A stretch of DNA of 64,000 nucleotides from Escherichia coli (GCF_029227855.1 NZ_CP074357.1), one strand, 5' to 3'. Counted from the stretch's first letter, positions 12,740-18,721 are shown. Translations and numbers: made by a program. The notes: generated by a model not told the origin, from the letters alone.

Positions 12740-15536
12740 TTAAGCAACGTTTTCTGCCTCTGACGCCTCTTTTAATGGTCTCAGATGTCCTTTGGTCACC
12801 AGTTCTGCCAGCGTGAAGGAATAATGGCCGAGCATATTGATATGTCCGTGGCAAAGCGGGGAGAGGCGTGCGATATCTTCATCATTCAGTGTTTCACCCT
12901 GCGCCCGGAGATGATCCAGGGCTGCCTGCATATAAATAGTGTTCCATAACACGACGGCGTTAGTGACCAGCCCCAGTGTGCCCAGTTGATCTTCCTGACC
13001 GTCGGTATATCGTTTTCTTATCTCACCTTTTTGACCGTGACAGATGGCTCTGGCAACGGCATGGCGACTTTCTCCCCGATTAAGCTGGGTCAGAATGCGC
13101 CGGCGGTAATCTTCATCATCAATATAATTAAGCAGATACAGCGTTTTGTTGATGCGCCCCACTTCAATGATTGCCTGAGTCAGTCCGGAAGGACGTTCAC
13201 TTTTCAGCAATGAACGGACCAGCACTGAAACCTGTACTTTGCCCAGCTTCAGGGAGCCAGCGGTCCGGATCATTTCGTCCCACTGAAGGACTATTTTTCG
13301 GGGATCTGATTGCCCTCTGGCAATATCATTCAGCACGCCATAGTCGGCATCATGGTCCATTCGCCAGAAAACCGAAGCACCGGCATCAGCCAGGCGTGGA
13401 GAAAACTGGTATCCCAGCAGCCAGAAAAGGCCAAAGACAAGTTCGCTGGCACCTGCTGTATCGGTCATAATTTCGGTTGGATTCAGCCCGGTCTCCTGTT
13501 CCAGAAGACCTTCCAGCACAAAGATAGAGTCCCTCAGCGTCCCCGGTATAACGATGCCATGAAAGCCGGAATACTGATCGGACACAAAGTTGTACCAGGT
13601 GATCCCTCTGTTATTACCAAAGTATTTGCGGTTCGGTCCGGCATTGATTGTTCTGACTGGCGTAACAAAGCGCATTCCATCTGCAGATGCCACTTCTCCT
13701 CCACCCCATATCTGTGCCAGTGGCAGCGTTGCCTGAAAATCAACCAGTCTGGCATTAGCGCTGGTGATAGTTTCAGCCCGCAGATAGTTCGCTTTTGTCC
13801 AGTTCAGCCGGTGTCGGGTCAGTGCAGGAACATTTGATCTGATCAGTGGTTCCAGACCGATATTGCAGGCTTCAGCCATCAGCACGGCGCTGATGCTGAC
13901 GGGCAGATCATCAACTCTGGCACTGGCTTCACTAGCATGGAAAAACTCATCAGCAAATCCGGTATGGGCGTTAATTTCGAGCAGCAACTCCGTTAAATCC
14001 ACCGGAGGGAGTAGATCACTGATCATTTTGCTCAGTCGTTTCAGACTGTCCGGCTCATCAAGACTGGCGAGGGGAGAAATTGTCAACCGGGGCTTCGGGC
14101 CAGAAACATCGAGTTCGACAGCCTCATTTTCGCAAAGACGTGCAGCAACCTGTCTGTAACGACTATCAAGCTGATGACCCAGAGATTTTATTGCTTCCTG
14201 CGGGTCTGTCGGGTGCCCCAAAGAACGATAAACCTTAATCCGGTTTGCCTGCCAGTCAGCACCCTGTAGTAATCTTGCACGAGGATCTCCCCACCGGTTA
14301 CTGCCGGTAACGTAGACATCCCTCCGCCTCAGACTATCCTGCAGTTTACTGAGAAAGCAGAGCGTGTATCCCCTGCGGGTGATATGTTTTTCCTTGTTAA
14401 TCACCAGCCGTTTCCATGACCGACTGATAATTTCCGTTGGTGCGTCGTCAAAAAACTGCCGCCGTGAGCTGAACTCCCGGCTGAGGTAGTCACAGGCATT
14501 CAGAGTGGTAACCCCGGCAGGTGCGGATGAAAATTTAACGGTATTCAGCAGATGGGGCAGGAAACGACGAACGCGCCCGTACTGCTCCACCATTTCTTCA
14601 TGAAAATTATCGTCTGAGGGCCGGGCAATTTCACGGACAAGCGTGATGATTTCAGCCAGCTTTTGCCTTGGGATGTAGCTGAACACCTCAGCACGAATCG
14701 ATTCGTCCGGTGTTTCTTCTTTCAGCAGGTACGAACATGCGCTGGCGAGCGCCAATGCAGATTTATCCAGATCCTTCAGCGAGCGGAGCCGTTTTTTCTG
14801 CCCAATCTTTCTGGCGTCACGGATGATAACGGCCAGCATGGCGTCCAGAACGTCCAATGCATCATCCAGCGCCAGCGTTTCCCATGCAAGGACAAAGGCA
14901 ACCAGAACCGCCATCCTTTTCTGCGGTGACATCCTGGCAATATTGAACACCGAAGTCATACCAGCATAACGTGCGAGATTTTTCAGGCGCACAGCCGGGA
15001 GTGTACTCAGGTTTTCAGCATGCAGGCCAAAATCGTTCAGAGTTTTCCAGCGTTCAATTGCTTCATTAAACGCCGGACCACTGATGGTCACAGGGCCCTT
15101 TTTCAGTGATTCCAGTAAAGACAGGCGGCTGCAATCAGTTGGCCCCAGCAGCATCTCCAGCTGTGAACGCTGTTCGGCTGACGGTATCAGTGCCAGTTTG
15201 TTCCACAGGCGCAACGTCGCCTTTTCCCTTACCTCTGAAATCAACCGGGTCAGCGTAGTGGCTCCGGGGAGAATAATACGATGTTGCATAAGCCACCCTG
15301 TCGCCAGATCGAAAAGCAGGCCAGGACGTTCGTTGCTTATCCAGCTCCGGGTATATAAAAGACGGGTAAGGCGAAATGTCCAGGGCCAGGCAAATTCACG
15401 ATACTGATAGTGCTGACGTATCAGCGCTGCATGCTCACGGCGGGTATTTTCCCTCTGACCGTATTCTGCAAGAACGGTGATATCACGAATCCCGAGCTGT
15501 CTGGCGGTAAAATGCCGGACGCCGGAAGGAATATGA
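12740..15536 (-). pseudogene. tnpA: Tn2 tnpA, 3' portion (interrupted by ISEcp1 unit)
   Basis: Minus-strand frame encodes Tn3 TnpA from ..IPSGVRHFTAR.. to the C-terminus ..KEASEAENVA. Confidence 0.9.
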
Positions 15537-15548
15537 CCTGGGACCTAC

Positions 15549-15881
15549 GTGCGCCCGCACCGACACCCTCACACCTTCGAGCTACTGTTGCCATTAAGGG
15601 GTCGTTTCGTGGTGCTGAATTTTGACGATCGGGGTACCGTCACCCATCGGGCGATATTGGGGGAAACCTGTACGGTGCTGGAGATGGCCGCAGGAACCTG
15701 GCATGCCGTGCTGTCGCTGGATACCGGTGGCATAATTTTTGAAGTAAAACACGGTGGCTATCAACCCGTGGCTGCCGATGACTATGCGCACTGGGCTCCA
15801 GCGGAAGGAGAACCAGGAACCACGGAGCTTATGGCCTGGTATGCGCAAGCGCAGGTGGGCGACAGCACTTTTGCCGTCTAA
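15549..15881 (+). CDS. wbuC: cupin-fold WbuC (orf477), truncated form usually found downstream of blaCTX-M-15-like genes
   Basis: 110-aa ORF (GTG start) immediately downstream of and opposite to blaCTX-M. Confidence 0.7.
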   Translation: MRPHRHPHTFELLLPLRGRFVVLNFDDRGTVTHRAILGETCTVLEMAAGTWHAVLSLDTGGIIFEVKHGGYQPVAADDYAHWAPAEGEPGTTELMAWYAQAQVGDSTFAV

Positions 15882-15927
15882 GGCGATAAACAAAAACGGA
15901 ATGAGTTTCCCCATTCCGTTTCCGCTA

Positions 15928-16803: not shown

Positions 16804-16851
16804 GGGATTCCTTATTCTGGAAGATACGAAATAACAACAACATGAATAGTC

Positions 16852-18507
16852 CCTAAATTCCACGTGTGTTTTTTATTAGCTTCAAAAATCACTATTTCAC
16901 GAAGAATTTAGACTGCTTCTCACACATTGTAACATTATTTACAACCACCTTTCAATCATTTTTGATAAATCATTGATTTCATCTTTGCTGCAATGATACT
17001 TAATAAACTCTGCAAGTTATCCACAGAGCAACACTCAATTTTATTGATGATATTCTTATTATACCAGACATTTTTCATACACTCCCTTGTACGGATAGTT
17101 TTCCGACAACTTCATGATTACATATCTTGCGGTTTTGATTATTTTTGCTGCAAGAAATACATACTTCAAACGAAAGGTCTTTATTTGCTGTCTGTATTCT
17201 GAAGAGTCCAAGGAATCAAACTTGAACAACAAAAATAGGTTATATGAAAGCATCATCATTTGAAACACGGCTTCATTCGCCCAAAATGACTTTAGCAAGA
17301 GATGACCCACCGCCATGTCGTATTTGGCTTCTTTGATATAGTTTTCAGCATTACCACGCTTTTCATAGTATATAACTACTTTTTCAGAAAGCAAGGTAGT
17401 ATTTGTTACAAAGAAAAAGTAGTCGTATTCGGAACCTTCTAAAAGTGATAATTGTGCTCTTTCTTTTTCTGGTTTCAGTACGCGAGATACGACAAATCTT
17501 CTGTCTTTTTCCCATTTAACTAATTTTGTATACAGTTCTGTAGTTTCTCTACCTTCTTCTCCTTTAACGAATACAATTGATGAATTCGTTGCTTGTGAGG
17601 TGAGTGTAGAATAACTTTTGGCTTTAATTAAATATTTGCATCCAAGAGATTCTATCGTTTCGATAATTTTTTCATCAAAGTAGCCACTATCCATTCGAAA
17701 TAAAATTTCTAAATCGTCTGATTTGATGTTAGCAACAATTTCTTTGATCATTTCCGCAGCACCGTTTGCAGTGTAAGTATTGCCACTTCTTACAAATCCG
17801 GTAACATATGCTTTTAATTCGTCGCAAAATGCAAATTGGATATTGTAGCATCGGTTTCCCAGTTTCTTAGGATTATATCCTTTTGACGCACCTTCTTGAT
17901 GACCTTCTACGTTAATTACACTACTATCAATATCAATCGTAATGGATGTCAATTTACTTTTAGTGAGCAGTTTTTTAAAGACTTTAAAATTAATGTCTCT
18001 AAACATTTGGGTTGTCTTGAAGTTGAAGTTTCCTAGAAACCGTGACACTGTTTCAGGTTCTTTTACGGAAATATCAAACTCGTTGACGAGGGGATCATTT
18101 TGAAGTAGCTTTAGACGTTCTAACTTATCAATGCCAATGAAGTGACCGCAGAGCATGGTCTTTATATGATTCATCTTGATTTTATTTGTTGAGTCATTAT
18201 CAAATACGAGGTCATTTTCAATAAAATCAAAAATCCCATTGCTTTTTGCATTCTCAAGGAGCAGAAAAAGACCTGCATTTGATGTTAGATTCTTAGCTTT
18301 GAAATCAATTTTATTAATCATAATTAGAACCCCTTTTTACTACTTTTCTTACTATTATTTTACCATATATCGAGTCATAAAAGCTGATAATTTAACATAT
18401 TTTTGAGCACTTTTCTTTCACCCAATGGGTGAAAGCTGAATTTCGAAGGAATGCATATTTATCAAGGCTTTGATTATGCTTTTTGAAGTACTGACGTAGA
18501 ATCTAGG
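16852..18507 (-). mobile_element. ISEcp1 (1656 bp)
   Basis: Contains the 420-aa transposase ORF; right end 48 bp upstream of blaCTX-M start. Confidence 0.9.
17059..18321 (-). CDS. ISEcp1 transposase (IS1380 family)
   Basis: 420-aa ORF MINKIDFKAKNLTSNAGLFLLLENAKSNGIFDF.. Confidence 0.95.
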   Translation of the reverse strand: MINKIDFKAKNLTSNAGLFLLLENAKSNGIFDFIENDLVFDNDSTNKIKMNHIKTMLCGHFIGIDKLERLKLLQNDPLVNEFDISVKEPETVSRFLGNFNFKTTQMFRDINFKVFKKLLTKSKLTSITIDIDSSVINVEGHQEGASKGYNPKKLGNRCYNIQFAFCDELKAYVTGFVRSGNTYTANGAAEMIKEIVANIKSDDLEILFRMDSGYFDEKIIETIESLGCKYLIKAKSYSTLTSQATNSSIVFVKGEEGRETTELYTKLVKWEKDRRFVVSRVLKPEKERAQLSLLEGSEYDYFFFVTNTTLLSEKVVIYYEKRGNAENYIKEAKYDMAVGHLLLKSFWANEAVFQMMMLSYNLFLLFKFDSLDSSEYRQQIKTFRLKYVFLAAKIIKTARYVIMKLSENYPYKGVYEKCLV

Positions 18508-18721
18508 TATGATTCATATCGGTGAGGAAGGTGCCCAGAAAACGGACACATCCAATTTGCAGGGCAATGCCCAGACGGTTGTGATCACCTCTGCTTTTTC
18601 CGATAAATTCCTTGTCTGCTTCATCAAGGTGAAAATATCGTGCCAGCTGAAGCTCATCCGGTTCACCGGTGAATCTGCCATAGCTTTCAGTCTGCTCAGT
18701 GGTCAGAAAGTCAACGGGCAT
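18508..18721 (-). pseudogene. tnpA: Tn2 tnpA, 5' portion (first ~71 codons)
   Basis: [71 protein letters not shown] then ISEcp1 IRL. Confidence 0.9.

What the first reader, a model, noticed from the sequence alone, without database searches (positions are those of the whole stretch)
15532..18512. Classical 2971-bp ISEcp1-blaCTX-M unit in Tn2 tnpA with TATGA duplication, carrying the CTX-M-55 signature
The unit is bounded by ISEcp1 IRL and an imperfect right end, flanked by TATGA direct repeats, and splits Tn2 tnpA exactly as in the widespread blaCTX-M-15 context. The beta-lactamase however reads MAVAAV (A77V) with 240G, which is the CTX-M-55 signature from memory. This suggests in-situ point evolution of blaCTX-M-15 to blaCTX-M-55 within the old transposition unit rather than a fresh capture.
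Basis: partly seen in the sequence, partly recalled or inferred. Interest (0 to 1): 0.3.

Follow-up and report, generated by a model that had tools for sequence, protein, structure and literature searches.

The report
Known ISEcp1-blaCTX-M-55 unit in Tn2
This is the well-known ISEcp1-driven cephalosporin-resistance cassette sitting in its usual place inside transposon Tn2, carrying the CTX-M-55 allele that differs by one base from the classic CTX-M-15 cassette; it is real and correctly read, but ordinary and already described.

Summary
Window 15537-18507 (minus strand) is a 2,971-bp unit. It consists of ISEcp1 (1,656 bp), a 48-bp spacer, an 876-bp bla gene and 391 bp of downstream DNA ending in an imperfect ISEcp1-like end. 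TATGA repeats flank it at 15532-15536 and 18508-18512. Removing the unit and one repeat restores a 1,001-aa TnpA and a 4,950-bp Tn2.

The protein is exactly CTX-M-55. Against CTX-M-15 units in the same Tn2 site, the only difference within the unit is bla nt 239 C>T (window 16565, Ala77Val). That is 1 difference in 2,981 bp versus a Malian E. coli plasmid and 1 in 7,342 bp versus pHg. A fresh capture is therefore excluded, and the allele arose within the old CTX-M-15 unit.

One caveat remains. [quoted passage not shown] So either the mutation recurred or it moved between units by recombination. A strictly in-situ mutation is the simplest reading but is not proven.

The window is 100% identical to a 267-kb IncHI2A/IncN E. 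coli plasmid (NZ_MZ152088.1). Many public plasmids carry the identical unit, and the literature already names "ISEcp1-blaCTX-M-55-orf477-(Tn2)" as the dominant context. Already known; low interest.

The parts
15532..15536 (.). TATGA target-site duplication, left copy in window orientation (tnpA nt 210-214)
15537..18507 (-). 2,971-bp ISEcp1-blaCTX-M-55-orf477-remnant transposition unit
   Evidence: One search gives the length. One search finds many plasmids with 100% identity over 2,981 bp. One search finds 1 nt difference from a CTX-M-15 unit.
15537..15550 (-). Imperfect alternative right end (IRR-alt) used by ISEcp1. CCTGGGACCTACGT matches IRL CCTAGATTCTACGT at 10 of 14 bases.
   Evidence: Sequences (which reports 14/30 over 30 nt). 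The 10/14 count was made by eye from that output.
15549..15881 (+). 5'-truncated orf477 (WbuC-family cupin) remnant of Kluyvera origin; only the C-terminal part is present
   Evidence: TIGR04366, 86 bits, profile positions 47-132 of 132. annotation. The full 477-bp orf477 is seen in the 127-bp-spacer lineage.
15928..16803 (-). blaCTX-M-55 (876 bp, 291 aa)
   Evidence: exact look-up. WP_015387340.1, AMRFinderPlus 100%. NF033089, 626.8 bits against a cutoff of 570.
16565..16565 (-). The single nucleotide separating this unit from CTX-M-15 units. It is bla nt 239 C>T (A on the + strand), precursor codon 80 GCC>GTC, which is Ambler Ala77Val.
16804..16851 (-). 48-bp spacer between ISEcp1 IRR and the bla start codon, as in the classical CTX-M-15 unit
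16852..18507 (-). ISEcp1, intact, 1,656 bp. IRL is at 18507 and IRR at 16852. GC is 33%, against 55% for the bla segment.
16926..16955 (-). Outward-facing promoter-like site inside the IRR end of ISEcp1: TTGAAA, 18 nt, TACAAT, with TG upstream. It faces bla.
   Evidence: 10 of 12 matches. That it drives bla is inferred from established knowledge of ISEcp1.
17059..18321 (-). ISEcp1 transposase gene (420 aa, IS1380 family)
   Evidence: NF033539, 329.6 bits against a cutoff of 180. WP_000608644.1.
18508..18512 (.). TATGA target-site duplication, right copy in window orientation
12707..20632 (.). Tn2 carrying the unit: 7,926 bp = 4,950 + 2,971 + 5. Perfect 38-bp IRs lie at 12707-12744 and 20595-20632.
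   Evidence: establish Tn2 identity.
12740..15536 (-). Tn2 tnpA, 3' part (from nt 210 to the stop codon)
18508..18721 (-). Tn2 tnpA, 5' part (nt 1-214)
18885..19442 (+). Tn2 tnpR (resolvase)
   Evidence: annotation, mapped to the window (window = L002 position minus 7,655). ORF.
19625..20485 (+). blaTEM-1 of Tn2

Best explanation
**What it is.** This is the classical 2,971-bp ISEcp1 transposition unit first known with blaCTX-M-15. It sits at its classical site, nt 210-214 of tnpA of the blaTEM-1 transposon Tn2.

**How it arose (established ISEcp1 mechanism, inferred here).** The ISEcp1 transposase once used its IRL together with an imperfect IRR-like sequence 391 bp beyond the bla stop codon, instead of its own IRR. 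This moved the IS and the adjacent Kluyvera-derived DNA as one piece and duplicated 5 bp (TATGA). That insertion inactivated Tn2 tnpA.

**Expression (inferred).** An outward promoter in the IRR end of ISEcp1, 48 bp plus a little more upstream of the start codon, drives bla expression.

**The allele.** The allele here is CTX-M-55. It differs from CTX-M-15 by one transition, bla C239T (Ala77Val). The change therefore happened after the unit was formed and inserted in Tn2. Most simply it was a point mutation in place. The literature describes Ala77Val as a stabilising 'global suppressor' that offsets the destabilising Asp240Gly.

**Where it sits now.** The Tn2::ISEcp1 module lies between qnrS1 and a PBP-blaLAP-2 segment, in the multiresistance region of an IncHI2A/IncN-type plasmid identical to NZ_MZ152088.1.
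For: **Structure.** The boundaries, the TSD and the restoration of tnpA and of a 4,950-bp Tn2 are shown.

**Allele.** Exact match to CTX-M-55. CTX-M family model NF033089 scores 626.8 bits against a cutoff of 570.

**Identity to CTX-M-15 units at the same site.**
- 1 difference in 2,981 bp against NZ_CP117017.1.
- 2 differences in 10,102 bp when the qnrS1-side flank is included.
- 1 difference in 7,342 bp against pHg.
- With 300-bp Tn2 flanks on each side, 14 uninterrupted records among E. coli complete genomes are exact CTX-M-55 matches. The listed one-mismatch hits are almost all CTX-M-15, including the O104:H4 and O25b:H4 plasmids.

**Tn2, not Tn3.**, using the reference statement in PMC4611040.

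**Promoter.** TTGAAA-18-TACAAT inside ISEcp1, facing bla.

**Literature.**
- TATGA duplication in tnpA for ISEcp1-blaCTX-M-15 in several plasmids (PMC2887853).
- ISEcp1-blaCTX-M-55-orf477-(Tn2) accounts for 58% of 2,947 CTX-M-55 contexts, and CTX-M-55 is regarded as a CTX-M-15 derivative (PMC10434037).
- A77V is a recurrent stabilising substitution paired with D240G (PMC5829062).

**Source.** The window is 100% identical to NZ_MZ152088.1 128001-192000.
Against: Nothing contradicts the structural identification.

Against the narrower claim of a mutation in situ:
- Both CTX-M-15 (L008) and CTX-M-55 (L007) also occur in a second, longer unit. That unit has a 127-bp spacer, a full orf477 and an insertion in blaTEM.
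- The only other marker in the shared region is spacer position -22, which is A in the 48-bp units and C in the 127-bp units. With nt 239 it gives all four haplotypes.
- So C239T either arose more than once or was exchanged by recombination. From these data the unit in which it first arose cannot be told.
- Only two sequences per lineage were compared.

Transposition, promoter activity and the phenotype were not tested here.
Confidence: 0.9

Rival explanations
1. The Val77 codon was not created in this unit. It was imported by homologous recombination or gene conversion from a blaCTX-M-55 copy in another context, such as the 127-bp-spacer IS26-bounded unit. The recipient was a resident Tn2-borne ISEcp1-blaCTX-M-15 unit.
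For: All four combinations of the spacer -22 marker and bla nt 239 exist. That requires either recombination or recurrent mutation. These multiresistance regions are full of IS26 and repeated segments, and plasmids carrying different CTX-M units can share a cell. Downstream of nt 239 the two units are identical up to the 2,971-bp boundary, so a conversion tract would leave no trace.
Against: The window keeps the 48-bp-lineage base at -22, only 261 bp from the SNP, so any tract must be short or one-sided. A77V is documented as arising independently in the CTX-M-1, -9 and -25 groups (PMC5829062), which makes recurrent mutation plausible without recombination.
Confidence: 0.25
2. A fresh, independent ISEcp1 capture of a blaCTX-M-55-like gene from a Kluyvera chromosome happened to land in Tn2.
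For: None found. Several spacer lengths (45, 48, 127 bp) upstream of blaCTX-M-55 are reported in the literature (PMC11895021). That could suggest multiple mobilisations in general.
Against: The 48-bp spacer, the right-hand boundary, the 5-bp duplication and the tnpA insertion point are all the same as in CTX-M-15 units. There is one nucleotide difference in 2,981-7,342 bp. An independent capture would not reproduce all four junction features.
Confidence: 0.01
3. The 2,971-bp unit acquired C239T at some other location. It then transposed again, as a unit, into the same TATGA of a naive Tn2.
For: The unit does occur with other flanks. Examples are matches covering query positions 6-2977 or 5-2981 next to unrelated genes, carrying CTX-M-55 (H61, H62, H65, H67). 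So it has been found at other sites.
Against: It would need a second hit at the same 5 bp of tnpA. The Tn2 backbone flanking the unit is identical to that of CTX-M-15 carriers: zero backbone differences in the ~4.4 kb of Tn2 shared with pHg. Common descent of the whole Tn2::ISEcp1 structure is far more parsimonious.
Confidence: 0.03

Closest known systems
ISEcp1-blaCTX-M-15-orf477-remnant 2,971-bp transposition unit in Tn2 tnpA. Examples: pHg NZ_CP006662.2, p65_MLI106-3 NZ_CP117017.1, E. coli O104:H4 pESBL NC_018659.1, and the pEC_Bactec / pEC_B24 / pEC_L8 plasmids of PMC2887853.
   Same: Length, ISEcp1, 48-bp spacer, right boundary, TATGA duplication, position in tnpA and Tn2 backbone are all the same. 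2,980 of 2,981 bases are identical.
   Different: One base differs: bla nt 239 C>T, giving Ala77Val (CTX-M-55 instead of CTX-M-15).
Published 'type I' context ISEcp1-blaCTX-M-55-orf477-(Tn2) (PMC10434037), and the many IncHI2-size plasmids that carry it. Examples: NZ_MZ152088.1, NZ_MN539018.1, NZ_CP123952.1.
   Same: Identical. The window is 100% identical to NZ_MZ152088.1 over all 64 kb. At least 40 plasmid records were listed with 100% identity over the 2,981 bp, 18 of them with an ISKpn26 insertion in ISEcp1.
   Different: Nothing within the unit differs. Some relatives have ISKpn26 or IS903B inserted in ISEcp1.
IS26-truncated ISEcp1, 127-bp spacer, blaCTX-M-55 or -15, full orf477, truncated blaTEM, IS26. 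Examples: pABW_A32b NZ_CP067305.1 and p13P484A-2 NZ_CP019282.1, next to fosA3.
   Same: Same bla gene and same downstream Kluyvera DNA, identical base for base up to the 2,971-bp boundary. Same A77V SNP in the CTX-M-55 version.
   Different: This is a different transposition unit. It has 79 more bp of spacer, C instead of A at -22, a full-length orf477, a right end beyond the 2,971-bp boundary lying in blaTEM rather than in tnpA, and an ISEcp1 cut by IS26.

Membership tests
Classical 2,971-bp ISEcp1-blaCTX-M-15-type transposition unit | Intact 1,656-bp ISEcp1 with IRL and IRR and a 420-aa IS1380-family transposase | tested here: met
   NF033539, 329.6 bits against a cutoff of 180. WP_000608644.1.
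Classical 2,971-bp ISEcp1-blaCTX-M-15-type transposition unit | 48-bp spacer between IRR and the bla start codon | tested here: met
   (48 bp). Identical to the spacer of the CTX-M-15 unit in L001.
Classical 2,971-bp ISEcp1-blaCTX-M-15-type transposition unit | Same right-hand boundary inside orf477 (imperfect IRR-like end), giving a total of 2,971 bp | tested here: met
   The boundary is identical in L001 and pHg.
Classical 2,971-bp ISEcp1-blaCTX-M-15-type transposition unit | Insertion in Tn2 tnpA with a 5-bp TATGA duplication | tested here: met
   Same junctions with 300-bp flanks in many CTX-M-15 records. Literature: PMC2887853.
Classical 2,971-bp ISEcp1-blaCTX-M-15-type transposition unit | The unit was moved by ISEcp1 transposase acting on IRL plus the alternative right end | not testable with these tools
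   Inferred from the TSD and the end similarity (10 of 14 bases).
CTX-M-55 allele (CTX-M-1 group) | Exact 291-aa sequence: CTX-M-15 plus Ala77Val, retaining Gly240 | tested here: met
   exact look-up, named CTX-M-55. WP_015387340.1, AMRFinderPlus 100%; a single codon change GCC>GTC relative to a CTX-M-15 gene.
Tn2 (as opposed to Tn3 or Tn1) | Sequence identity to reference Tn2. Partridge 2015 (PMC4611040) states that the Tn2 in pHg is identical to AY123253. | tested here: met
   Zero backbone mismatches with pHg over the part pHg retains. 33 mismatches in 2,837 bp against the Tn3 tnpA of pKPN-068. The first 584 bp at the tnpA-end IR are missing from pHg (cut by IS26), so they were not compared with a named Tn2. 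Tn1 was not compared. The blaTEM-1b framework is implied by identity to pHg and was not typed separately.
Fresh ISEcp1 capture from Kluyvera (independent mobilisation) | Own spacer length, own right boundary and own insertion site | tested here: not met
   All three are shared with CTX-M-15 units.

The most novel reading that the evidence does not exclude
The most novel reading not excluded: Ala77Val arose independently at least twice on the CTX-M-15 background, once in the 48-bp/Tn2 unit and once in the 127-bp/IS26 unit. This locus would then be one arm of a natural parallel-evolution experiment for a stabilising suppressor of D240G. Alternatively, short gene-conversion tracts move single adaptive bases between non-allelic CTX-M units on co-resident plasmids.
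Probability: 0.5. Interest if true: 0.2.

Novelty: already known. Interest (0 to 1): 0.07.

Why it matters
It matters only as routine resistance epidemiology. The locus is a cefotaxime/ceftazidime resistance determinant (CTX-M-55) on a large conjugative IncHI2A/IncN-type multiresistance plasmid. It sits beside qnrS1, blaTEM-1 and blaLAP-2.

It shows how an old, immobilised transposition unit keeps evolving by single-base change while being carried passively by larger elements. None of this is new. The allele, its one-residue relationship to CTX-M-15, the Tn2 context and the identical plasmid sequence are all in public databases and papers.

Tried and rejected
1. **Tn3 and Tn1 references.** I tried to fetch them from plasmids R1 (KY749247) and RK2 (BN000925). 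Neither is in the collections. CP006662 and CP007733 without the NZ_ prefix also failed, then worked with the prefix.
2. **Partridge & Hall 2005.** This paper on Tn1/Tn2/Tn3 is not held. I used Partridge 2015 (PMC4611040) instead, which names pHg as carrying reference-identical Tn2.
3. **Sister plasmid.** I looked for one with CTX-M-15 in exactly the same wider context.
   - The IncHI2-size plasmid pAGR6137a carries the unit in a different, classical CTX-M-15 multiresistance region.
   - Among E. coli complete genomes, the Tn2-IRR/PBP junction occurs only with CTX-M-55.
   - So no direct CTX-M-15 ancestor with both Tn2 junctions was found. The qnrS1-side junction is shared with CTX-M-15 plasmids from Mali.
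4. **Empty site for Tn2.** I searched with the two flanks joined. None was found in PLSDB.
5. **Fresh capture.** Considered and rejected (see rival explanations).
6. **Artefact check on tnpA.** The 849-aa tnpA ORF in the ORF list might have signalled an extra frameshift. It does not. It is only the first ATG after the unit boundary, and the reconstructed gene is intact.

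
Full report
**1. Observation**

Reading window 15300-18800 and computing on it confirms every structural statement. All of the following lie on the minus strand.

- ISEcp1 occupies 18507..16852 (1,656 bp). Its IRL is CCTAGATTCTACGTCAGTAC... and its IRR ends ...ACACACGTGGAATTTAGG.
- A 48-bp spacer (16851..16804) precedes an 876-bp bla ORF (16803..15928).
- A further 391 bp follow. They contain a 5'-truncated orf477 (WbuC cupin; TIGR04366, profile positions 47-132 only).
- The unit ends at 15537 with CCTGGGACCTACGT. By eye, from the sequences printed, this matches IRL at 10 of its first 14 bases.

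The unit is exactly 2,971 bp. TATGA flanks it at 15532-15536 and 18508-18512.

This is not a chance repeat. Deleting the unit and one TATGA restores a 1,001-codon tnpA, with TATGA at nt 210-214. It also restores a 4,950-bp transposon with perfect 38-bp inverted repeats at 12707-12744 and 20595-20632. No other copy of the unit is present in the window.

**2. Allele**

The 291-aa product is an exact, full-length match to the protein that sources name CTX-M-55. The identical public record annotates it as WP_015387340.1, blaCTX-M-55, AMRFinderPlus 100%. It passes the NCBIfam CTX-M model (626.8 bits against a cutoff of 570).

**3. Comparison with CTX-M-15 units**

- Against the ISEcp1-blaCTX-M-15 unit in Tn2 of E. 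coli plasmid p65_MLI106-3 (NZ_CP117017.1, Mali), the 2,981-bp segment differs at one position. That position is window 16565, bla nt 239 C>T, GCC>GTC.
- The identity extends over 10,102 bp (window 10532-20633). This covers the whole Tn2 and the qnrS1-side flank. There is only one further difference, at 12891 in tnpA.
- Against pHg of K. pneumoniae ATCC BAA-2146, the only mismatch in 7,342 bp is again 16565.
- With 300-bp Tn2 flanks on both sides, E. coli complete genomes contain 14 uninterrupted exact matches, plus one interrupted by IS903B. All carry CTX-M-55, mostly on 220-320-kb plasmids and once on a chromosome.
- The same search returns many one-mismatch matches carrying CTX-M-15. They include the O104:H4 outbreak plasmid and O25b:H4 plasmids.

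**4. Tn2 or Tn3**

Partridge (PMC4611040) states two things. The Tn2 in pHg is identical to reference Tn2 (AY123253), apart from the ISEcp1-blaCTX-M-15 insertion and an IS26 truncation. The transposon in pKPN-068 is identical to Tn3.

The window's transposon has no backbone mismatch with pHg. It has 33 mismatches in 2,837 bp of tnpA against pKPN-068. 'Tn2' is correct. PGAP's label 'Tn3-like element Tn3 family' is generic.

**5. How it works**

*Shown:*
- the anatomy, the TSD and the disruption of tnpA;
- a sigma-70-like TTGAAA-18-TACAAT site with an upstream TG at 16955-16926, inside the IRR end of ISEcp1 and facing bla;
- the compositional break between ISEcp1 (33% GC) and the captured DNA (55% GC).

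*Inferred from established knowledge of ISEcp1 (IS1380 family):*
- The transposase used IRL with a downstream imperfect IRR-like sequence. This moved the IS and the adjacent Kluyvera DNA in one piece and made a 5-bp duplication.
- The IS-borne promoter expresses bla.

*From the literature:*
- TATGA in tnpA is the recurrent site for the CTX-M-15 unit (PMC2887853).
- A77V raises the stability and expression of D240G or P167S CTX-M enzymes. It recurs in the CTX-M-1, -9 and -25 groups (PMC5829062).

**6. In situ, or not**

A fresh capture is excluded, because the spacer, right boundary, TSD and site are all shared. I tested whether the single SNP must have arisen in this unit.

A second lineage exists. 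It has an IS26-truncated ISEcp1, a 127-bp spacer, a full 477-bp orf477 and a right end in blaTEM. It carries CTX-M-55 in pABW_A32b and CTX-M-15 in p13P484A-2.

In the region shared with the window, the four sequences differ in three ways:
- the 79-bp spacer extension;
- spacer position -22, which is A in both 48-bp units and C in both 127-bp units (window 16825);
- bla nt 239.

All four haplotypes of the last two sites are present. So C239T either arose at least twice or was transferred by recombination. Because A77V is a known recurrent suppressor, independent mutation is plausible, and an in-place mutation is the simplest account for this locus. Recombination cannot be excluded with a single SNP and only two sequences per lineage.

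Among E. coli complete genomes, the Tn2-IRR/PBP junction present in the window occurs only with CTX-M-55 (6 records). CTX-M-15 matches stop at the Tn2 end. No CTX-M-15 ancestor sharing both Tn2 junctions was found.

**7. Source and context**

- The whole window is 100% identical to NZ_MZ152088.1 positions 128001-192000. That record is an E. coli plasmid of 267,429 bp, typed IncHI2A/IncN, MOBH, conjugative.
- The module sits in an IS26-rich multiresistance region. Upstream are dfrA14, arr-2, mph(A)-mrx-mphR, ISKpn19 and qnrS1. Downstream are a PBP-like gene, blaLAP-2, aac(3)-IId, aadA22, lnu(F), sul3, tet(A) and floR.

**8. Novelty**

None.
- At least 40 PLSDB plasmids were listed with 100% identity over the 2,981 bp, and 1,564 records have a match covering at least 80% of the query.
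- A 2023 survey reports 'ISEcp1-blaCTX-M-55-orf477-(Tn2)' as the dominant context (1,721 of 2,947) and calls CTX-M-55 a derivative of CTX-M-15 (PMC10434037).
- Reviews already note 45-, 48- and 127-bp spacers upstream of blaCTX-M-55 and propose origin by mutation of blaCTX-M-3 or -15 (PMC11895021).

**Verdict:** a correct reading of an ordinary, already described structure.

Noticed in passing
window 12702-12706 and 20633-20637: The 5 bp flanking the 7,926-bp Tn2::ISEcp1 are TTTTA and TGTTA, so they are not a perfect target duplication. No plasmid in PLSDB holds the two flanks joined as an empty site: 0 of 1,098 matching records cover at least 80% of the joined query. The two Tn2 junctions probably have separate histories, for example recombination between two Tn2 copies. 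The qnrS1-side junction is shared with CTX-M-15 plasmids from Mali. The PBP-side junction was seen only with CTX-M-55 in E. coli complete genomes.
   Followed up: partly
window 16825 (spacer position -22 relative to the bla ATG): Apart from nt 239, a single base separates the 48-bp-spacer units (A on the bla strand) from the 127-bp-spacer units (C) within otherwise identical shared sequence. Only two sequences per lineage were compared. It may be a usable lineage marker for recombination tests.
   Followed up: partly
window 12891: One further SNP in Tn2 tnpA separates the window (C on the minus strand) from the CTX-M-15-bearing p65_MLI106-3 (A). pHg agrees with the window at this site.
   Followed up: no
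window 20876-22624 and about 22689-23546: Immediately beyond the blaTEM-end IR of Tn2 lies a 582-aa penicillin-binding transpeptidase-domain ORF. The record annotates a 576-aa product, and one relative labels it FtsI. It is followed by blaLAP-2. A plasmid-borne PBP3-like gene next to a beta-lactamase is a recurring but little-discussed passenger.
   Followed up: no
whole window 1-64000: The window is 100% identical to NZ_MZ152088.1 128001-192000, an IncHI2A/IncN E. coli plasmid of 267 kb. It holds an IS26-rich multiresistance region: dfrA14, arr-2, truncated cmlA, mph(A), qnrS1, blaCTX-M-55, blaTEM-1, blaLAP-2, aac(3)-IId, aadA22, lnu(F), a mef(B) fragment, sul3, tet(A) and floR. A small replication-initiator gene is bracketed by IS26.
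   Followed up: partly
PLSDB hits H1-H18 and H56/H116: Many Salmonella IncHI2-size plasmids carry the same unit with ISKpn26 inserted in ISEcp1. One E. coli plasmid has IS903B inserted there. These are secondary IS hits that would immobilise ISEcp1.
   Followed up: no
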